Origin: Promethearchaeota archaeon
GTDB lineage: Archaea; Asgardarchaeota; Lokiarchaeia; Sigyniarchaeales; Promethearchaeaceae
DNA: 32,000 nucleotides
Direction: 5' to 3'
Assembly: GCA_016933055.1 (NCBI GenBank)
Contig: JAFGBS010000004.1
Coordinates: forward strand, 90,001-122,000
Made by a program: the position numbers and the translations under genes. How positions within the stretch are numbered: position 1 is the first letter of the stretch; each line of letters begins with the position of its first letter. This document shows positions 11,052-19,058 of the stretch, one piece after another. The notes beneath the pieces were generated by a model. It worked only from the letters and a program-made list of their open reading frames with translations, ran no database searches and had not been told where the DNA came from.

Positions 11052-11670
11052 AGATCGTGTTGCTGTATTGATCGGAAAAAATGGTATTACCAAGAAAAAA
11101 ATTCAATTTTTGACTAATACACAGATTGAAGTCGATAGTACAACGGGAGAATATTCCATCATCCCTGTAGAAGATCAAGAGGACGACACTCCCGAAATGC
11201 AAAATATATTAGATCAACTTGATATAACTCCTGAATCATTGAATATCTATAAAGAATCCCCTAATTTTGGAATGTGGACTGCGAAAAAAATCATCGAAGC
11301 TATTAATATGGGATTCAAACCTGAAAAAGCATTTAAACTGATTAATCAAGACTGTATTTTCGAAATCATTTCTCTTGAGGATATTTTAGGAAATTCTCAG
11401 AAAACAATTAAACGCATCAAGGGAAGACTCATTGGGGAAAAAGGAATCATGCGGAAATCGATCGAAAAATATACAAACGCTCATATCTCAGTATATCAAA
11501 ACCAAATTGGTTTTATTGCTGATTTTGATTCTTTGAAAATCGCCCAAAAAGCAGTGGATATGATCATAGAAGGACTTCCGCATAAAACAGTCTTAGCATT
11601 TTTACAAAAACGATATCGAGAGAAAAAAGAAAAAGAGTTCCATGAAACCTGGAAACCCACGTTTGATTAA
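11041..11670 (+). CDS. dim2: KH-domain pre-rRNA processing protein Dim2/Pno1
   Basis: Two KH GxxG loops (LIGKNG, RLIGEKG); directly follows rio1 as in the conserved archaeal cluster. Confidence 0.9.
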   Translation: MMNKDRVAVLIGKNGITKKKIQFLTNTQIEVDSTTGEYSIIPVEDQEDDTPEMQNILDQLDITPESLNIYKESPNFGMWTAKKIIEAINMGFKPEKAFKLINQDCIFEIISLEDILGNSQKTIKRIKGRLIGEKGIMRKSIEKYTNAHISVYQNQIGFIADFDSLKIAQKAVDMIIEGLPHKTVLAFLQKRYREKKEKEFHETWKPTFD

Positions 11671-12821
11671 ACGAAACTTTCTTCAGTATTTTTCTTTTTT
11701 CTTGATTGACTTTCCATTTCTGGTAAAGAAAACAACTCGTCTGAAAGTTTTGGTTTAGGTTGTGGTAAATTCCTGATAATCGGAGATGAAGGATACCGTG
11801 TGTGATTTATTGATGACCCTAAAACTTGAGGTGATTTTATTCCCGTAATTAATAGCATAACACGGATGTAATTATGGATTTTCGAATCTACTCGTGCCCC
11901 CCATATCACCATTGCATTTTTATCCATTTTGGTGGAAATATATTCTGATACCTTGTTTGCCTCCGTTAAAGTCATATCATTTCCTCCAGTAACATGGATT
12001 AATGCACCTTTCGCTCCACTTATGTCGATTTCTAACAATGGGGAACTAAGGGCATCTTGAATCGCTTCTTCTACCCTATTTCCTTTTTCAGTATGGGATT
12101 CTCCAATTCCGATAAATGCAACTCCTCCTGTAGACAGAATCGTTCGGACATCTGCATAATCAAGATTAATCAGAGAAGGTAAACTAACTGTTTCCGTGAT
12201 TCCCTTCACCATAGTGGCTAAAACCTCATCCGCTAATGAAAAAGCTTCAATTATAGGTAAATCCGGCGCAATTTCTAGTAATTTATTGTTATCTAATACT
12301 ACTACCGTGTCTGTAAATCTCCGTAAATTCTTTAGTCCTTCTTGTGCTTTGGGTAATCGACCCATCTCTGTTTTAAAAGGTAATGTAACGACTCCTACCA
12401 CCATTGCACCGTTCAATTTAGCGATTTCAGCAACTATAGGAGAGCTACCTGTACCAGTTCCACCTCCAAGTCCGCATGTGATAAACACCAAATCTGCATC
12501 ATTTAGAATCGTATCCAATTCATTTCGTGATTCTTCTGCCGCCGCACGTCCTATTTCAGGTTGACCTCCTGCGCCTAATCCCCTTGTAAGGGTTTTTCCA
12601 ATTAAAATGCGTTTATCACTGAGTTTAGAATCTAAATGTTGCTGATCTGTGTTAATAGAGATACATATAGCTCCTAAAATTCCTATTCGCATCAGTCTAT
12701 CTACAGTATTATTTCCGGCACCTCCCGCACCTACTATTACAATCTTAGCCTGTCCTATTGTTCCCCTATTTTCAGGGGGTTTTTGGACATGCTTACGTGC
12801 ATTACGTATCAGCGATTCCAT
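11667..12821 (-). CDS. ftsZ: Cell division protein FtsZ
   Basis: GAGGAGNN, GLGAG, tubulin signature GGGTGTG, T7 loop NLDYAD, WGA motif. Confidence 0.97.
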   Translation of the reverse strand: MESLIRNARKHVQKPPENRGTIGQAKIVIVGAGGAGNNTVDRLMRIGILGAICISINTDQQHLDSKLSDKRILIGKTLTRGLGAGGQPEIGRAAAEESRNELDTILNDADLVFITCGLGGGTGTGSSPIVAEIAKLNGAMVVGVVTLPFKTEMGRLPKAQEGLKNLRRFTDTVVVLDNNKLLEIAPDLPIIEAFSLADEVLATMVKGITETVSLPSLINLDYADVRTILSTGGVAFIGIGESHTEKGNRVEEAIQDALSSPLLEIDISGAKGALIHVTGGNDMTLTEANKVSEYISTKMDKNAMVIWGARVDSKIHNYIRVMLLITGIKSPQVLGSSINHTRYPSSPIIRNLPQPKPKLSDELFSLPEMESQSRKKKNTEESFV

Positions 12822-13029: not shown

Positions 13030-13113
13030 GCAGAGATTGCCGAGTATGGTCAAAGGCGCTGGACTTAGAATCCAGTCTTTAGTAGTTCGGGGGTTCAAAT
13101 CCCTCTCTCTGCA
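13030..13113 (+). tRNA. tRNA-Leu(TAG), long variable arm, no encoded CCA
   Basis: Acceptor GCAGAGA/TCTCTGC+A, anticodon arm CTGGA-CTTAGAA-TCCAG, GGTTCAAATCC T arm. Confidence 0.97.
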
Positions 13114-13567
13114 CTTTTGTTCTACTTAACACTTCATAGTTTAAATCGTAAAAAGTAGGACCCCAAGTAAATTTCGACAAGAGAAATTCAGCTTGATTTT
13201 CATGGCCAATTATAAAAAGGGCTGCAGCTAAAGCTTCTACTGATGACAATTTTTCCCATCTTCCATAATTAACGCTATTAGCAGCAAGCAATTTAGGTAA
13301 TTTTCTACCAGTGTGGAAATCTTTAAACACCTTTTCAACTAGTTTCCAGGAACAATCAATAGCTACTAGCCCATAAGTTTCAATTTGTGATTTATCTTCT
13401 ATACTTAGGATTTTTGGGGAAAACGGATCTAAAATTATCGCCTTTTTTGGTAAAAATTTGAGTTTAGGTACCAGCTTAACTAAATTGAACTTTCTTAGTT
13501 TTAAACTGGTACACTTTTTGGGATCACACTGCCCATAGTGAACTACAAATAATTTTGGATCTATCAT
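13079..13567 (-). CDS. tsr3: 16S rRNA aminocarboxypropyltransferase Tsr3 (likely start ATG 13567)
   Basis: QCDPKKCTSLKL, LDPFS, DCSW, RKLPKLLAANSVNYG, LSSVEALAAAL, FTWGPTF. Confidence 0.95.
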   Translation of the reverse strand: MIDPKLFVVHYGQCDPKKCTSLKLRKFNLVKLVPKLKFLPKKAIILDPFSPKILSIEDKSQIETYGLVAIDCSWKLVEKVFKDFHTGRKLPKLLAANSVNYGRWEKLSSVEALAAALFIIGHENQAEFLLSKFTWGPTFYDLNYEVLSRTKVQREGFEPPNY

Positions 13568-14562
13568 GAAAATTTCGCTGTACATAAGGAATTTATACTC
13601 TTAATAAATAATTCCGTTGTTTGTTCTGATCCAACTACTTTTTGTATGGAATGAACAATGTTTCGGATCTCTCCTAAAACGGGAATCGCACCATATGTTA
13701 AAGGAAATAAAGCGATAAACGTGATATCTTGGACGGCTGTGGCACCAGTACTTGTATCGGTGAATTGGAATTTACTCGAAGGACAAGCAATTATGCCATA
13801 ATAACTATCCCTATTTTTCGCCGAAAGACAAACATAAGACAACAAAGATCCCATTTTTAGTGAACCAGCTTCTTCCACCATTTTCTGGAAAGCCACATTG
13901 GTATTTGCACTAAAGGCTTCTACAGAAATTGGTAAATTTACAAGATTTTTATTTCTATGGTCAAATGTTAATCCGCTGGGAGCTACCAGACTATAGACTG
14001 CTAATACGGGATTTTTGACACTATCAAGAATATCATTAATCAAAATGATTTTATTTCTATCCTGTGGTTGACTGTTACCATAAGTTGTAAGCGATACTTC
14101 ACTACCCATTCCAAATAAATAGATCGCACTACGTACACTATTGCTAAATATCTCCATGTTTTGAGTCACATTTCTTGTACCGAAATAATTATCGATCTCT
14201 CGTCGTAAATGATAAATACAGGACCCAATGGTATCCGCATTCAATGGCCATTCTTTATTGTAATCATGCACAATTGTTAGCAGAGTCTGGCTTATTCGAA
14301 TGGTTATTAAACAAATTTTTTCAAAAAAGGAAAATGTAATGATCTGATTTTCCATTTGTAAATCACTCCAATTTTCATCACTCGATGAAAACGCAGCTGC
14401 AGATACGGATGTGATTGTGTTCGGATCAAGTTCCAAATCAGTATTTCTCCCAATACGTGCAATAGATAAACCACTTTCATCCGATAGAAGGACCATTAAC
14501 GTTGCATCCGAAGATCTCAAAATACTCGATAAATGTTTTACTAGCGATTCCCGTACACTCAT
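13564..14562 (-). CDS. Roadblock/LC7-like protein, probably two domains
   Basis: VLLSDESGLSIA...ITSVSAAAFSSS and YSLVAPSGLTFD...VEAFSANTNVAF patterns; GAGGTG SD; ATGA overlap with tsr3. Confidence 0.65.
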   Translation of the reverse strand: MSVRESLVKHLSSILRSSDATLMVLLSDESGLSIARIGRNTDLELDPNTITSVSAAAFSSSDENWSDLQMENQIITFSFFEKICLITIRISQTLLTIVHDYNKEWPLNADTIGSCIYHLRREIDNYFGTRNVTQNMEIFSNSVRSAIYLFGMGSEVSLTTYGNSQPQDRNKIILINDILDSVKNPVLAVYSLVAPSGLTFDHRNKNLVNLPISVEAFSANTNVAFQKMVEEAGSLKMGSLLSYVCLSAKNRDSYYGIIACPSSKFQFTDTSTGATAVQDITFIALFPLTYGAIPVLGEIRNIVHSIQKVVGSEQTTELFIKSINSLCTAKFS

Positions 14563-14647
14563 AAGACCACCTCAATCAATAATATAAGAAAGAGAAATTC
14601 AAACATTAAAGTTTATTTGTATCCAGTTAAAAAGAAAGAAGAGGAAC

Positions 14648-16273
14648 TTAATCCTCTAAATCATCTTGCGGCGATTGGGGCATCTTTGGCCCCCCCCCCT
14701 CTTTAGAGGCAGAAATTACCTCATCAATTCGCAAGATCATCATACTCATTTCTGTAGCGGATTTTATGGCTTGTTGCAACACTCTTGTTGGTTCACATAC
14801 TCCATTCGCAAAAGCATCATAAATCTCTTTAGTGTCTAAATTTATCCCATAAAATTGTCCCGAAGACTGTTCATGTTTGGAGTGAAGTTTTGCTAGAATC
14901 TCCATTGGTTCCATACCCGCATTTTCTGCCAGAATGAGTGGAATAGATTCAATACTCTTTGAAAATGCTTCAACTGCTATAGATTCTCGAGTATTAATGG
15001 ATTTGGCTAACTTCATCAATCGTTTAGAAACTTCCATTTCCACTGCCCCTGCCCCTGGAACTACATAATTATCTTCTAATGCAATTTTTATTACACTTAA
15101 AGCATTTTTAAGAGCTCGTTCTGCGTCTTCTGCTATATGACGTGTTCCTCCTCTAATTAAAATACTGGTAGATTTCGGATTATCGCAGTTTTCAACAAAA
15201 ATCATTTTATCTTTTCCAATTTGCTTTTCTTCTACACTCCCCGCCTGACCCAAATCGGATGAAGTCATCGTTTTGATGTCCGTAATTATTTTACCATCAG
15301 TTGCTTTCATCAACTTCTGTAAATCAGATCTCTTAATTCTTCGTATAGCCATTATCCCGTTATTACTTAGATAGTATTGAGCAATATCATCTATTCCTTT
15401 CTGACAAAACACAACGTTTGCTCCAGAATCTATGATAAATTGAATCAGATTATGAAGGATGTCATCTTCTTGTTGTTTGAATGCTTTAATTTGACTGGGA
15501 TCGACAATCCGAACATCTGCATCGAATTCTGTTTTTGTAATTTCCAAAGAGTGGTCAATCAGTGCAATTTTTGCATCCTTGACGGACTTAGGCATGGACT
15601 CGTTAACAACTTCTTTATCTACAATCAATCCGTCAATAAAAGAAGAATTTGCTAAGCTCTCTCCTTCTTTTTTCATTATTTGAATTAGATCTAGATCCAC
15701 TAAATTTTTTTCTCCTCTTTTCTCTACCACTCGCAAGCAAGCTTTGGTTGCAATATCCGCCATCTTTTCTGCATTCCCAAAAGTGGATTTAGTAGATAAT
15801 GCAGTTTTTGCCACTTTCTTTAACTCTTTTTCATCCATGGAAATTTGATGAGAAATTTCACTAAGAATTTGAGAACAATGAAGAGATGCTTTATGATATC
15901 CGCTTAATATTACATTAGGATGCACTTTTTGGTCTAATAATTCTTTACCATACTTTAGTAGTTCACCAAGCATTATTATTGCTTTTGTAACCCCATCTCC
16001 TATGTTTTTATTCATGAGTTTTGCTAATTGGGTTATTATCTTCGCTGCTGGGTGTTCAACTTCAATCTCATCGAGAATCGAGAAAGAATCATTGGTGACA
16101 GTTACGTCCCCGATGGAATCTACTAACATTTTGGATAACCCTTTGGGACCAAGAGTTGTTTTGATTGCTTCTGAAATCGAACGAATAGCTGAAATGTTTT
16201 CAGATAGTGCGGTTTCTCTTGATTCCACAGAGGTCCCTTCTTTTAAGATAATTGGAATTCCGTAAAATGCCAT
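14648..16273 (-). CDS. Thermosome (group II chaperonin) subunit with degenerate ATPase motifs (start ATG 16273)
   Basis: TTLGPKG, IEVEHPAAK, GDGV, KKEG, VFCQKGIDD, ILIRGG, IPLILAENAG, LRIDEVI; GGTGA SD. Confidence 0.95.
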   Translation of the reverse strand: MAFYGIPIILKEGTSVESRETALSENISAIRSISEAIKTTLGPKGLSKMLVDSIGDVTVTNDSFSILDEIEVEHPAAKIITQLAKLMNKNIGDGVTKAIIMLGELLKYGKELLDQKVHPNVILSGYHKASLHCSQILSEISHQISMDEKELKKVAKTALSTKSTFGNAEKMADIATKACLRVVEKRGEKNLVDLDLIQIMKKEGESLANSSFIDGLIVDKEVVNESMPKSVKDAKIALIDHSLEITKTEFDADVRIVDPSQIKAFKQQEDDILHNLIQFIIDSGANVVFCQKGIDDIAQYYLSNNGIMAIRRIKRSDLQKLMKATDGKIITDIKTMTSSDLGQAGSVEEKQIGKDKMIFVENCDNPKSTSILIRGGTRHIAEDAERALKNALSVIKIALEDNYVVPGAGAVEMEVSKRLMKLAKSINTRESIAVEAFSKSIESIPLILAENAGMEPMEILAKLHSKHEQSSGQFYGINLDTKEIYDAFANGVCEPTRVLQQAIKSATEMSMMILRIDEVISASKEGGGPKMPQSPQDDLED

Positions 16274-16388
16274 TTTTTTCACCTTGTTGGTTATAATTAA
16301 AGGAAACGGAAATGAGATAAAAAATTTTCTTTTTAAACACGTCTAAGTCAAACTAAAGAAAAAGTTCGGTTTATATAGTTTCTGTTTA

Positions 16389-17807
16389 ATGTCAGAGAGT
16401 GCATCTATGATATCATATGATCAATTCTATCTTATGGTAATGATTTGCTTTTTCTTCTTATTAATTGGAATTAACTTAATGGATTTGGTACATTCGATTC
16501 GAAAAATTTTAAATAGAAATCACTTACATCATTGGTGGATTTGGTTTATATTCACCAAATTATTACCCTGTCTGCTGGTCTTCTTACCATTTTTCACGTC
16601 TTGGATCACGATTTCAACTCTAATATTCATCTCCATAACATGCATTTTACCAGTAGGAGTAAAAATACAACTAAACCGTAAGAAAATTCTTCTTCCTAAA
16701 TCTAAGCAAACCAAAAGGGGTAAAAGGATCTATATCGGAACACTGCAATCCCGAATTATCCCCAAACGATTTTACTTGTCAGAAACAGATTTAAAACGAC
16801 ACGTATTTATAACGGGACTTACCGGGATGGGTAAATCTAATTTCGTGAAGCATTTACTTTATCAGTTAACAAAACGATATTCTTCGGTTTCCTTTCTTTT
16901 AATCGAATTTAAAGGGGAATACAAAGAAATACAAAAACGAATACCACATATAACAATTCTACGACCGGGGGAAAACCTGAAAATTAATATATTCAATCCT
17001 ATTGATGAAGACCCAAAAATATATGCTGAGAAGTTAATGAATTTATTTACAGAATGTCAAATAATAACTTTTCAAGAGGAATATTCTGCTCAAATGGAAA
17101 AAATTTTCGTTGAATTGTTGTATGCCGTATGCTCTGACCCAAAAAGGAGGAGTTGGGAGGGATTCGACTATTATATTCAACAGTATATGAAACAACAAAA
17201 TACAAAATATTATAATCTCCATAACACCCTTTCGGGTATTGAGAATCGCATTCGCAGATTAAAGAACGGCCCCCTCAGAATGATATTTGGAAAGGAACAC
17301 GATTTCAATCTTAGCAAAATCATCCAAAATAACGTAATCATTGACTTAAGCAGTATAATTCAAAAAGGTGGAACTAAAAATGACGCAGTTTTTTTTTCAA
17401 ACATTATTTTTAATCACGTGTGGTTGTTTAATCTAAAAAAAGGACCAAGTACTGAGATTAACCATTTTACTCTAATTGAAGATTCTCAAATCTTACTCTC
17501 TCAAAAAATTGCAAAATATCTAACAACTACCACCTATCTAGAAGATTTTGCTTTGCTTTTACGAGGAACAGGAGAGTGTTTAATCACTATCAACACCCGA
17601 CCCACCATAAGTGAGGATGTCATGGCAAACGCCGGAGTTATAGTATCATTCCAATTAAGTTATGATCAAAATATTATGGGAAGACTCCTATCATTAAATG
17701 AAAATAAGTACTTCTATCTGACATTGTTGGATATCGGAGAGTGTTTAATTAAAACCAATTCAATTAAAACTCCATTAATGGTGAAAATTCCTCTGATTAA
17801 GAATTAA
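16389..17807 (+). CDS. Membrane-anchored HerA/FtsK/VirB4-like (DUF87) P-loop ATPase
   Basis: About 3 N-terminal hydrophobic helices; RHVFITGLTGMGKS Walker A; IEFKGEY; INIFNP; FTLIEDSQ Walker B-like; LRGTG; GECLIK. Confidence 0.75.
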   Translation: MSESASMISYDQFYLMVMICFFFLLIGINLMDLVHSIRKILNRNHLHHWWIWFIFTKLLPCLLVFLPFFTSWITISTLIFISITCILPVGVKIQLNRKKILLPKSKQTKRGKRIYIGTLQSRIIPKRFYLSETDLKRHVFITGLTGMGKSNFVKHLLYQLTKRYSSVSFLLIEFKGEYKEIQKRIPHITILRPGENLKINIFNPIDEDPKIYAEKLMNLFTECQIITFQEEYSAQMEKIFVELLYAVCSDPKRRSWEGFDYYIQQYMKQQNTKYYNLHNTLSGIENRIRRLKNGPLRMIFGKEHDFNLSKIIQNNVIIDLSSIIQKGGTKNDAVFFSNIIFNHVWLFNLKKGPSTEINHFTLIEDSQILLSQKIAKYLTTTTYLEDFALLLRGTGECLITINTRPTISEDVMANAGVIVSFQLSYDQNIMGRLLSLNENKYFYLTLLDIGECLIKTNSIKTPLMVKIPLIKN

Positions 17808-17846
17808 CAAAGAATAGCTTTTTATGGGAGTATCAAAGTTTTTATT

Positions 17847-19058
17847 GTGATGTTAGTAGGTATAATCGGTAAACCTTCCTCAGGAAAAAGCACATTTTTA
17901 AATGCTGCTTGTTTAACGGACGCTAAGGTGGGTGATTATCCTTTTACTACGATCGATCCCAACATCGGTACAGGTTATGTAGTTACACGATGTGTCTGCG
18001 AAGAATTAAACGTGATAGATAATCCAATAAATTCGCTCTGTATCGATCATAATCGCTATATCCCGATTAAATTATTGGATGTTGCGGGATTAGTTCCAGA
18101 TGCGCATCTTGGTAAAGGATTAGGAAATAAATTTTTAAGCGAACTTAGTAGAGCTGACGTTTTATTACACATTTTAGATATTTCAGGTGAATTAGACTTA
18201 GAGGGTAATAAATGTGAAAACGGTTCACATGACCCTTATGAGGATATTGAATTTTTAGAACGAGAGATAAATTTATGGTTTAAAGATATATTACTAAGAA
18301 CCGATTGGCGGAAGTTTGCTAATAAAGTAGCAATGGAAAAAACCAATCTAGCGGAGGCACTATATGAACGATTATCTGGTTTGTCCATTCAAAAAAAGCA
18401 CATAATTAAAGCACTCGAACAATCAAAATTAAATATGGAGCACCCCGATAGGTGGACTGAAATCGATATAGAACATTTTTCGAAAATCCTACGGATAATT
18501 TCTAAACCGATTGTAATTATAGCAAATAAAATTGACAAAAAAAATTCTGCTGTTAATTTCCAAAAAATTAAAAACAAAATCACTAGTCCAATTATCCCTT
18601 GTTCGTCCTTGGCGGAATTTTACCTTAGAAAATTATCAGAGAAAAATCTAATATCCTATAGACCAGGAGCATCCTCTTTCAAAATTATTGATGAACAGAA
18701 AATAAGCTCTAATGACCAATCTATCTTGAATGATATCCTCACCAAAATCTTACATCTGTATGGAAGTACTGGTATTCAGGATGCATTAAATACGGCAGTA
18801 TTCGATGTTTTAGATAATATTGTGGTGTATCCCGTCCACGATGAAAAGAAATTCATGGATCATGATGGAAATATATTACCTGATGCGTATTTAGTCCCTA
18901 AAAATATGAATTTGAAAGAATTCATTCAAACGAAGATCCACTCGGATCTTGCGAAGAACTTCATCTATGCTTTAGATGCACGAACCAAATTACGTTTGGG
19001 AGAGAATCATGAACTTAAGAATAACGATATTATCAAGGTAGTTTCTGCAACGCGTTAA
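17847..19058 (+). CDS. ychF: Archaeal YchF/Obg-family translation-associated GTPase with TGS domain
   Basis: GKPSSGKS, YPFTTIDPN, DVAGLVP, GLGNKFL, ANKID, IHSDLAKNF. Confidence 0.92.
   Translation: MMLVGIIGKPSSGKSTFLNAACLTDAKVGDYPFTTIDPNIGTGYVVTRCVCEELNVIDNPINSLCIDHNRYIPIKLLDVAGLVPDAHLGKGLGNKFLSELSRADVLLHILDISGELDLEGNKCENGSHDPYEDIEFLEREINLWFKDILLRTDWRKFANKVAMEKTNLAEALYERLSGLSIQKKHIIKALEQSKLNMEHPDRWTEIDIEHFSKILRIISKPIVIIANKIDKKNSAVNFQKIKNKITSPIIPCSSLAEFYLRKLSEKNLISYRPGASSFKIIDEQKISSNDQSILNDILTKILHLYGSTGIQDALNTAVFDVLDNIVVYPVHDEKKFMDHDGNILPDAYLVPKNMNLKEFIQTKIHSDLAKNFIYALDARTKLRLGENHELKNNDIIKVVSATR

What the first reader, a model, noticed from the sequence alone, without database searches (positions are those of the whole stretch)
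14648..16273. Group II chaperonin subunit with three degenerate ATPase motifs
Checked at nucleotide level: GDGTTT reads GDGVTK, TNDG reads TNDS, and the catalytic Asp of ERxLxDAL (GroEL D398, Mm-Cpn D386) is Asn (ERALKNAL). The rest of the protein is intact. Established: eukaryotic CCT has subunits with unequal ATP use, such as CCT8 with an altered GDGT motif. Inference: an ATPase-impaired subunit of a hetero-oligomeric ring, i.e. CCT-like division of labour in an Asgard archaeon.
Basis: partly seen in the sequence, partly recalled or inferred. Interest (0 to 1): 0.65.

Follow-up and report, generated by a model that had tools for sequence, protein, structure and literature searches.

The report
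Hydrolysis-dead third thermosome subunit in Asgards
This Lokiarchaeial (Asgard) genome has two normal copies of the archaeal protein-folding cage subunit and a third, intact copy kept by selection that has lost a key ATP-splitting residue; the same copy occurs in the cultured Asgard archaea, so a eukaryote-like unequal use of ATP among subunits can be tested there, although it arose independently of the eukaryotic chaperonin.

Summary
Window 14648-16273 (-) encodes a full-length 541-aa group II chaperonin.

**Changed:** TNDG reads TNDS, GDGTTT reads GDGVTK, and the catalytic Asp is Asn (N390). GMDKM reads GLSKM, the QD before the P-loop reads MN, and GGGA reads GAGA.

**Kept:** the Mg-binding Asp (D93), the first catalytic Asp (D62) and the sensing-loop Lys (K162).

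**Context:**
- The genome's two other paralogues are canonical.
- The gene is one positional orthologue in 13 of 14 species of its family. These include Promethearchaeum syntrophicum MK-D1, Lokiarchaeum ossiferum and Harpocratesius.
- All 54 protein clusters read have Asn at the catalytic position. The exact TNDS and GDGVTK forms are confined to a sub-clade.
- In the sister family the same gene slot holds a canonical copy, so the loss dates to the family stem.
- Selection is purifying (dN/dS 0.10-0.15).
- The equatorial ATPase domain has become the fastest-evolving domain.

**Reading:** a subunit that binds nucleotide but hydrolyses poorly or not at all, in a hetero-oligomeric thermosome. Co-assembly is untested.

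**Relation to CCT:** analogy, not ancestry. The sampled CCT subunits group with a canonical paralogue. Other Asgard families evolved similar dead copies independently.

This scan had already noted ATPase-dead thermosome paralogues in other genomes. I found no paper describing them.

The parts
14648..16273 (-). Gene for the third ('slot C') thermosome paralogue, 541 aa plus stop
   Evidence: ORF. Pfam PF00118 1.3e-166. NCBIfam thermosome_beta 656 bits. AlphaFold2 model with Foldseek TM 0.88-0.93 to thermosome subunits.
16279..16284 (-). Shine-Dalgarno-like AGGTGA, 5 nt before the ATG; A/T-rich TATA-like stretches lie further upstream
   Evidence: Read directly from the sequence. Function as an expression signal is inferred.
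15104..15109 (-). Codons K389-N390. N390 replaces the second catalytic Asp (Mm-cpn D386 / GroEL D398); the preceding residue is Lys.
   Evidence: AAA AAT. This column is Asp in 63 of 63 canonical sequences and Asn in all 54 clusters of the deviant clade. Across 219 sequences, K or R precedes the catalytic position in 35 of 36 with Asn and in 7 of about 180 with Asp.
15983..16000 (-). P-loop G92-D93-G94-V95-T96-K97 (canonical GDGTTT/S). G-D-G is kept; the first Thr is lost.
   Evidence: G92, D93 and G94 are invariant in alignment A1.
16085..16096 (-). T60-N61-D62-S63 (canonical TNDG). The first catalytic Asp, D62, is kept; Gly is replaced by Ser.
   Evidence: The position after Asp varies within the clade (S/C/T/A/G).
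16127..16141 (-). G45-L46-S47-K48-M49 (canonical GMDKM). The conserved Asp is lost.
16010..16015 (-). M87-N88, replacing the conserved Q-D four residues before the P-loop
15044..15055 (-). G407-A408-G409-A410 (canonical GGGA, the GGG nucleotide loop)
15788..15790 (-). K162, the nucleotide-sensing-loop Lys, retained
   Evidence: Invariant in alignment A1 and in every member of the deviant clade.
13564..14562 (-). Downstream neighbour: roadblock/MP1(LAMTOR3)-like protein. Used as a synteny marker, not shown to be functionally linked.
   Evidence: Pfam MAPKK1_Int 4.5e-5, just below the curated cut-off. It lies next to the slot-C thermosome gene in both families of the order.
13079..13585 (-). Tsr3-type ribosome-biogenesis gene, synteny marker
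   Evidence: Pfam Ribo_biogen_C 2.8e-37. Conserved neighbour.
16389..17807 (+). Divergently transcribed HerA/DUF87-like P-loop ATPase with a hydrophobic N-terminal part, synteny marker
   Evidence: Pfam DUF87 5.6e-13. Conserved neighbour.
17847..19058 (+). YchF/Obg-like GTPase, synteny marker
   Evidence: Pfam YGR210-like_G4 and MMR_HSR1. Conserved next to the HerA-like gene in both families.

Best explanation
The gene encodes a structurally complete thermosome (group II chaperonin) subunit. It is the third of three paralogues in a genome of the Lokiarchaeial family that also holds Promethearchaeum syntrophicum and Lokiarchaeum ossiferum.

On the stem of that family, the orthologue in this gene slot lost the second catalytic Asp (now Asn, preceded by Lys) and several other pocket residues. 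It kept the G-D-G of the P-loop with the Mg-binding Asp, the first catalytic Asp and the sensing-loop Lys.

The most likely reading is that the subunit still binds nucleotide, which is needed for ring assembly and allostery, but hydrolyses ATP very slowly or not at all. It would then sit in mixed rings with the two canonical, ATP-hydrolysing paralogues. There it would contribute its comparatively well-kept apical (client-binding and lid) domain and act as a non-firing position in the ring. This is functionally analogous to CCT8 and CCT6 in eukaryotic TRiC, but arose independently.

Shown here: the gene, the fold, the substitutions, their conservation, orthology, purifying selection, the domain-specific acceleration and the independent origin. 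Inferred: impaired hydrolysis, retained nucleotide binding and co-assembly.
For: 1. The family and fold are intact.
2. The catalytic Asp is Asn in all 23 C1 and 31 C2 clusters and in 13 of 14 species of the family. The two other paralogues of the same genomes are canonical.
3. Positional orthology: the same flanking genes (roadblock-like, tsr3, HerA-like ATPase, YchF-like GTPase) surround the deviant gene in family f1 and a canonical-motif gene in sister family f2. The tree puts both in one order-specific clade (96-97 SH-aLRT). An AU test does not reject their monophyly (p 0.247).
4. Selection is purifying: dN/dS is 0.10-0.15 at unsaturated dS within one genus, against 0.04-0.06 for paralogue A of the same genomes.
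5. The usual domain pattern is reversed. For paralogue A between families, the equatorial domain is 74% identical and the apical 69%. For slot C it is 44-48% against 55%.
6. Of 128 columns conserved at 95% or more in canonical sequences, 10 changed in both sub-clades. None of these lies among the 30 conserved apical columns.
7. G92, D93, G94 and K162 are invariant and D62 nearly so.
8. Literature:
   - Changing this Asp to Ala is the standard way to make hydrolysis-deficient CCT subunits, which still assemble (PMC5413064).
   - Mm-cpn D386A is used to trap the ATP-bound pre-hydrolysis state (PDB titles 3j02 and 3izh).
   - Nucleotide binding through the P-loop is needed for ring assembly (bioRxiv 10.1101/2021.02.24.432666).
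   - CCT8 stays ADP-bound and barely takes part in the cycle (PMC6765261).
Against: - No biochemical data exist. Asn could in principle still help to position the attacking water, and the conserved Lys389 could compensate.
- With a strict motif list fixed in advance (LGPxG, ITxDG, GDGTT, GGG, catalytic Asp, sensing-loop Lys), the enrichment of shared changes is not significant (3 of 10; Fisher p 0.15). The strong enrichment (9 of 10; p 4.5e-6) used windows that I drew after seeing the sites.
- Nothing tested here shows that the subunit joins the other two rather than forming its own ring.
- In T. acidophilum, mutations in the P-loop and Mg-Asp often blocked hetero-assembly (PMC5983026), so pocket changes can affect assembly.
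- Later drift of the P-loop Thr positions within the clade could mean that even nucleotide binding is weakly constrained.
Confidence: 0.6

Rival explanations
1. The subunit has left the general thermosome. It forms its own homo-oligomeric, ATP-independent or ATP-binding-only particle that serves as a holdase or a dedicated chaperone for particular clients.
For: - It has distinct C-terminal tails: acidic in C1, short and basic in C2. Both lack the Gly/Met-rich tail of paralogues A and B.
- The stem branch is long.
- Earlier scan notes describe ATPase-dead paralogues tied to specific gene clusters in other genomes (unchecked here).
- The gene sits in a conserved five-gene neighbourhood.
Against: - The neighbourhood predates the loss. 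It surrounds a canonical copy in the sister family, so it does not mark a new dedicated function.
- FtsZ adjacency is limited to the C1 sub-clade.
- Ring-forming elements, the stem loop and the lid are conserved.
- No genome was seen with this copy alone. That is expected in any case, so it is weak evidence.
Confidence: 0.2
2. The protein is still a competent ATPase. The substitutions retune affinity or cooperativity, for example through Lys389 and Lys97, without abolishing hydrolysis.
For: - The Mg-binding Asp, the first catalytic Asp, the second P-loop Thr/Ser and the sensing-loop Lys are kept.
- Active crenarchaeal beta subunits naturally carry DGTKT in the P-loop (alignment), so the P-loop tolerates Lys.
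- Purifying selection continues.
Against: - The Asp at this position is 100% conserved in the canonical sequences sampled. It is the residue mutated to obtain hydrolysis-deficient chaperonins (PMC5413064; PDB titles).
- The equatorial domain evolves faster than the apical one only in this lineage.
- Pocket positions drift within the clade, which fits relaxed catalytic constraint.
Confidence: 0.15
3. The gene is a decaying, functionless duplicate.
For: It has several substitutions at otherwise invariant sites, and its dN/dS is two to three times that of paralogue A.
Against: - The frame is intact in more than 54 clusters that have diverged to about 43% identity, with 88 invariant columns in alignment A1.
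- dN/dS is 0.10-0.15.
- It has a good ribosome-binding site.
- The model is confident and complete.
Confidence: 0.02

Closest known systems
Canonical archaeal thermosome subunits (T. acidophilum alpha/beta 1a6d, Thermococcus KS-1 1q3s, M. maripaludis Mm-cpn 3ruq, Sulfolobus/Acidianus beta 4xcd/3j1e)
   Same: Same family, length and three-domain fold with a built-in lid. Identity is 45-49%, E 1e-144 to 1e-155, TM 0.84-0.93. It keeps LGPxG, G-D-G, the first catalytic Asp and the sensing-loop Lys.
   Different: The second catalytic Asp is Asn. The first P-loop Thr, the Asp of GMDKM, the Q-D before the P-loop and one Gly of GGG are changed. There is no Gly/Met-rich C-terminal tail. It scores below the TIGR02339 thermosome_arch cut-off (622.6 against 671.1).
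Engineered hydrolysis-deficient chaperonins: Mm-cpn D386A, the CtCCT 'HYD' Asp-to-Ala subunits, GroEL D398A (the last from my own knowledge)
   Same: The same residue is hit. Those mutants still fold, assemble and bind ATP, but hydrolyse poorly (PMC5413064; PDB titles 3izh and 3j02).
   Different: Here the change is natural, Asp to Asn rather than Ala. It is fixed across a whole family, is accompanied by a basic residue at position -1, and is followed by further remodelling of the pocket.
CCT8 (and CCT6) of eukaryotic TRiC/CCT
   Same: These are subunits of a hetero-oligomeric group II ring that contribute little or nothing to ATP turnover. CCT8 stays ADP-bound, and the ATPase-deficient CCT8 variant leaves complex activity unchanged (PMC6765261, PMC5413064). 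GDGTT-to-AAAAA is tolerated in Cct6p (PMC3268035).
   Different: They are not orthologous. All NCBIfam CCT models score below their cut-offs, and the CCT representatives group with Asgard paralogue A. All eight CCT subunits keep the catalytic Asp (PMC5413064), whereas this protein does not. Membership of a mixed ring is unproven here.
Three-paralogue thermosomes of other archaea (Sulfolobus alpha/beta/gamma; Haloferax CCT1-3) - from my own knowledge plus PDB titles 4xcd/4xcg
   Same: There are three paralogous subunits in one genome. Hetero-oligomers of variable composition and recurrent lineage-specific duplication are known for those systems.
   Different: I found no report, and did not test here, that any of those subunits has lost the catalytic Asp.
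ATP-site-degenerate third or extra thermosome paralogues in other Asgard families (found here: L256, L257, L269, L081, second half of the Jord/Freyarchaeial fused gene)
   Same: The same kind of loss, often with the same [K/R]-N at the catalytic position.
   Different: Their origin is separate. They fall outside the order-specific clade, and a single clade of all Asn-bearing copies is rejected (log-likelihood difference 138.8, AU p 9.5e-17). They are much more diverged, with end branches above 1.1.
Chaperonin-like BBS6/10/12 of vertebrates and variant GroEL2/3 of Chlamydiae
   Same: These are diverged chaperonin paralogues living beside a canonical chaperonin (PMC2846930; the NCBIfam 'variant chaperonin GroEL2/3' models appear). 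That their ATP sites are degenerate is from my own knowledge.
   Different: They belong to different lineages, and GroEL2/3 to group I. They are far more diverged and have no sequence affinity beyond the superfamily.

Membership tests
Group II chaperonin / thermosome (Pfam PF00118; NCBIfam NF041083, NF041082, TIGR02339) | Full-length match to the family profile above the curated cut-off | tested here: met
   PF00118 scores 555.6 bits (cut-off 34.3), profile positions 1-489 of 490. NF041083 thermosome_beta scores 656 (cut-off 400) and NF041082 scores 638 (cut-off 450). The older TIGR02339 model is missed, at 622.6 against 671.1.
Group II chaperonin / thermosome | Equatorial, intermediate and apical domain fold with a helical-protrusion lid | tested here: met
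   AlphaFold2 mean pLDDT 84.5, pTM 0.81. Foldseek TM 0.88-0.93 and rmsd 1.7-2.1 A to 1q3s, 1q2v and 3ruq.
Group II chaperonin / thermosome | Complete ATP-hydrolysis site: Mg-binding Asp in GDGTT, two catalytic Asp residues (TNDG and helix-11 Asp), sensing-loop Lys | tested here: not met
   D93, D62 and K162 are present. The helix-11 Asp is Asn390, and the first P-loop Thr is Val. This is a structural member of the family, but not a canonical catalytic one.
Group II chaperonin / thermosome | Assembly into double rings of 8 or 9 subunits | not testable with these tools
   No multimer prediction or experimental data were available.
Eukaryotic CCT/TRiC subunit (any of CCT1-8) | Orthology to one of the eight CCT subunit families | tested here: not met
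   All eight TIGR CCT models score far below their cut-offs; the best is CCT alpha at 432 against 800. In the tree, CCT1/4/5 representatives form their own clade (97) that joins Asgard paralogue A (92), not the deviant clade. CCT2, 3, 6, 7 and 8 were not in the tree.
Eukaryotic CCT/TRiC-like division of labour (functional analogy, not a family) | A hetero-oligomeric ring in which some positions do not hydrolyse ATP | not testable with these tools
   The evidence is indirect only: two canonical paralogues co-occur in every genome, and the catalytic Asp is lost in the third.
Slot-C thermosome orthologue group of the order (families f1 and f2) | The same flanking genes and one clade in the tree | tested here: met
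   The block roadblock-like / tsr3 / thermosome / HerA-like ATPase / YchF-like GTPase is present in the window, L163, L083, L164, MK-D1, L. ossiferum, Harpocratesius and three f2 genomes. The order-specific clade has support 96-97. Monophyly of the f1 and f2 slot-C genes is not rejected (AU p 0.247) but is not recovered in the free tree.

The most novel reading that the evidence does not exclude
Asgard archaea have evolved, at least four or five times independently, a third thermosome subunit that keeps the nucleotide-binding G-D-G/Lys core but replaces the catalytic Asp by Asn next to a basic residue ([K/R]-N). If this recurrent signature marks a selected, nucleotide-locked, non-firing ring position, then built-in ATPase asymmetry is a repeatable outcome of chaperonin paralogy in the closest archaeal relatives of eukaryotes. 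In that case the asymmetry would be neither neutral decay nor a eukaryotic invention. The MK-D1 and L. ossiferum cultures would offer a natural three-subunit model of how CCT-type division of labour evolves.
Probability: 0.3. Interest if true: 0.7.

Novelty: new variant of a known kind. Interest (0 to 1): 0.5.

Why it matters
Why the eukaryotic chaperonin CCT has eight different subunits with unequal ATP use is an open question. Archaeal thermosomes are usually treated as rings of equivalent ATPases.

Here a natural, family-wide loss of the catalytic Asp in one of three subunits has three useful properties:
- It can be dated to a single branch, because the sister family keeps a canonical copy in the same gene slot.
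- It occurs in the only cultured Lokiarchaeial Asgard archaea.
- Similar losses recur in other Asgard families.

This makes the evolution and mechanics of ATPase asymmetry in group II chaperonins directly testable in a simple three-subunit system.

It does not change the view of where CCT came from. The sampled CCT subunits group with the canonical paralogue, so the resemblance is convergent.

Tried and rejected
- **Neighbourhoods of metagenomic orthologues:** I used the search for related loci and the fetch from genomes instead.
- **Spatial clustering of the changed sites:** this could not be measured, because model coordinates are not exposed to the script box. I used sequence-defined domains.
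- **Enrichment in ATP motifs:** with a motif list fixed in advance the enrichment is not significant (p 0.15). Only windows drawn after seeing the sites give p 4.5e-6. I report both.
- **Link to FtsZ (11667-12821), by analogy with CCT and tubulin:** rejected. The adjacency exists only in the C1 sub-clade, not in MK-D1, L. ossiferum, Harpocratesius or family f2.
- **Shift to a basic protein, as an earlier scan note reported for another genome:** not seen here. The core pI is 5.0-6.5, overlapping paralogue B.
- **Pseudogene:** rejected.
- **One ancient Asgard-wide dead paralogue:** rejected by the AU test. The group was named after I had seen the tree.
- **dN/dS for the window's own sub-clade:** dS is saturated, so only the C2 genus-level values are reliable.
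- **Full CCT1-8 phylogeny:** not possible. Only CCT1, 4, 5 and 7 sequences came to hand, by chance, and CCT7 was dropped from the tree for a gene-model insertion.
- **Literature:** nine searches found no paper on ATP-site loss in Asgard or other archaeal thermosomes. The library lacks most subscription journals.

Full report
**1. What is there**

The minus-strand ORF 14648..16273 encodes 541 aa.
- The Met at 16273 is the start shared by orthologues. AGGTGA lies 5 nt upstream.
- The protein matches Pfam Cpn60_TCP1 end to end (1.3e-166) and NCBIfam thermosome_beta and thermosome_alpha above their cut-offs. All eight CCT models fall far below theirs.
- The closest solved relatives are archaeal thermosomes at 45-49% identity.
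- An AlphaFold2 model (pLDDT 84.5) superposes on closed thermosome subunits with TM 0.88-0.93, lid included.

**2. The substitutions**

I compared the protein with 63 canonical Asgard and Bathyarchaeia sequences, which have 128 columns conserved at 95% or more.
- Further changes appear at M46L, D47S, Q87M, D88N, M159L, E383D and G408A.
- Retained and invariant in the clade are G92-D93-G94 (P-loop with the Mg-binding Asp) and K162 (sensing loop). D62, the first catalytic Asp, is kept in nearly all members.
- N390 lies in model helix 378-400. By the chain offsets it corresponds to Mm-cpn D386, the 'key hydrolytic residue' of PMC6765261.

**3. Paralogues and taxonomy**

- The genome (3.76 Mb, 91% complete) has three PF00118 genes. 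The two on contig 17 are canonical at every motif.
- Close homologues are named Promethearchaeota or Lokiarchaeota.
- Exact look-ups show that the same gene in other genera of the family is annotated as an ordinary thermosome subunit. This holds for Promethearchaeum syntrophicum MK-D1 (QEE14849.1), Ca. Lokiarchaeum ossiferum (UYP46412.1) and Ca. Harpocratesius repetitus (MCF2138988.1).

**4. Conservation**

- Two sub-clades exist.
  - C1 is the window type: GP.GL[SN]KM / TND[SCT] / GDG[VIL]TK / ..KN.. / GAGA. It has 23 clusters at 55-77% identity.
  - C2 is the MK-D1 type: GPKGLNKM / T[GSN]DGAK / GDG[ASVT]SS / ..KNGL. It is about 529 aa with no tail and has 31 clusters.
- All 54 clusters have Asn at the catalytic position. 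Thirteen of 14 species representatives of the family carry the gene; the exception is 76% complete.
- NG86 dN/dS within one genus is 0.10-0.15 (dS 0.2-0.5), against 0.04-0.06 for paralogue A of the same genomes. For the window's own sub-clade dS is saturated.

**5. Origin**

- C1 and C2 genes share the same neighbours: a roadblock/MP1-like gene, tsr3, a HerA-like ATPase and a YchF-like GTPase.
- In the sister family of the same order, that same slot holds a paralogue with fully canonical motifs.
- In IQ-TREE (LG+C20) trees the deviant clade is monophyletic (97-98). It lies in an order-specific clade (96-97) with paralogue B and the canonical f2 slot-C genes.
- Monophyly of the f1 and f2 slot-C genes is not rejected (AU p 0.247).
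- The ATP-site loss therefore happened on the stem of one family, in a pre-existing third paralogue.
- Domain identities show where the change fell. For paralogue A between the families, the equatorial domain is the best conserved (74% against 69% apical). For slot C the order is reversed (44-48% against 55%).

**6. Relation to CCT**

- A search made for another purpose returned eukaryotic CCT1, 4, 5 and 7 sequences. They are canonical at all these motifs.
- In a tree, CCT1/4/5 form a clade (97) that joins the canonical Asgard paralogue A (92). The deviant clade stays apart (97).
- All eight CCT subunits keep the catalytic Asp (PMC5413064).
- The resemblance to CCT8, which is ADP-bound and dispensable for ATPase (PMC6765261, PMC5413064), and to CCT6 (PMC3268035) is therefore functional analogy at most. 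This protein is more degenerate than either.

**7. Wider pattern**

- Third or extra paralogues in other Asgard families are also ATP-site degenerate. Examples are L256 (SNYG, KNGL), L257 (TSSG, RNGL), L269, and Jord/Freyarchaeial copies (RNSM, RNVL).
- They do not group with the window's clade. One clade of all Asn-bearing copies is rejected (AU p 9.5e-17).
- Across 219 sequences, Asn at the catalytic position is preceded by K or R in 35 of 36 cases. Asp is preceded by K or R in 7 of about 180.
- Earlier notes of this scan report ATPase-dead thermosome paralogues in other genomes. I did not check those loci.

**8. Mechanism**

- Shown: an intact gene kept by selection, lacking one catalytic carboxylate, in an equatorial domain that is evolving fast.
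- Inferred: the subunit keeps nucleotide binding, which is needed for ring assembly in TRiC subunits (bioRxiv 10.1101/2021.02.24.432666), but has lost most hydrolysis. It would act as a non-firing subunit in mixed rings with paralogues A and B.
- The rivals are a separate particle or a still-active enzyme. They cannot be excluded without biochemistry.

**9. Limits**

- Only four CCT families were sampled, and three entered the tree.
- Enrichment of the changes in ATP motifs depends on how the motifs are delimited.
- The paper library lacks most subscription journals, so the lack of a prior description is provisional.

Noticed in passing
L243:6522-9767 (+) = G038:C1, about 3110521-3113766: A single 1081-aa ORF made of two tandem group II chaperonin units, whose second unit has Asn at the catalytic position (ERVFRNVL). 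The fusion is conserved at 65-88% identity in 12 clusters named Freyarchaeota, Jordarchaeia or Jordarchaeum. That genome has 7 PF00118 matches, i.e. six genes.
   Followed up: partly
L075-L077 (G083:C16, G147:C4, G138:C166): In the sister family, where slot C is canonical, paralogue B is the deviant one. It shows KGGL for RGG[TS], GGGAIY, GM[SN]KM, and EIAVKSAI (Asp to Ser) in one genome. Each family thus has one odd subunit out of three, but a different one.
   Followed up: partly
L060 (G152:C44:20376-21899) and L283 (G162:C398): A fourth, very divergent chaperonin-like gene (25% identity to the window protein) lacks the helix-11 catalytic Asp (HESLETAI, KRGLLKLI); L060 also lacks the first (TQKG), while L283 keeps it (SSDG). 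It occurs in two genomes of the family and was not found in the window's genome. It resembles an earlier scan note on another genome.
   Followed up: partly
window 13079-19058: A five-gene block is conserved across both families of the order: roadblock/MP1-like, tsr3, thermosome slot C, HerA/DUF87-like ATPase with a hydrophobic N-terminus, and YchF-like GTPase. tsr3 is locally inverted in some genomes.
   Followed up: partly
window 11667-12821 (-): An FtsZ gene lies just beyond tsr3. It is 88% identical in L163 and is present in all C1-type loci, but absent from the block in MK-D1, L. ossiferum, Harpocratesius and family f2.
   Followed up: yes
L048/L051/L053/L055 against L044/L037/L041/L045 (genus g57): Synonymous divergence of the slot-C gene within this genus (dS 0.2-0.5) is clearly lower than that of paralogue A in the same genomes (dS 0.7-0.9). 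This is unexplained; possible causes are codon-usage constraint, recent exchange, or the crude estimator.
   Followed up: no
tree: CCT1/4/5 representatives join the canonical Asgard paralogue-A clade (support 92), which also contains copies from families f16 and f19 (Jord/Freyarchaeia). Sampling is too thin to draw a conclusion about the origin of CCT.
   Followed up: no
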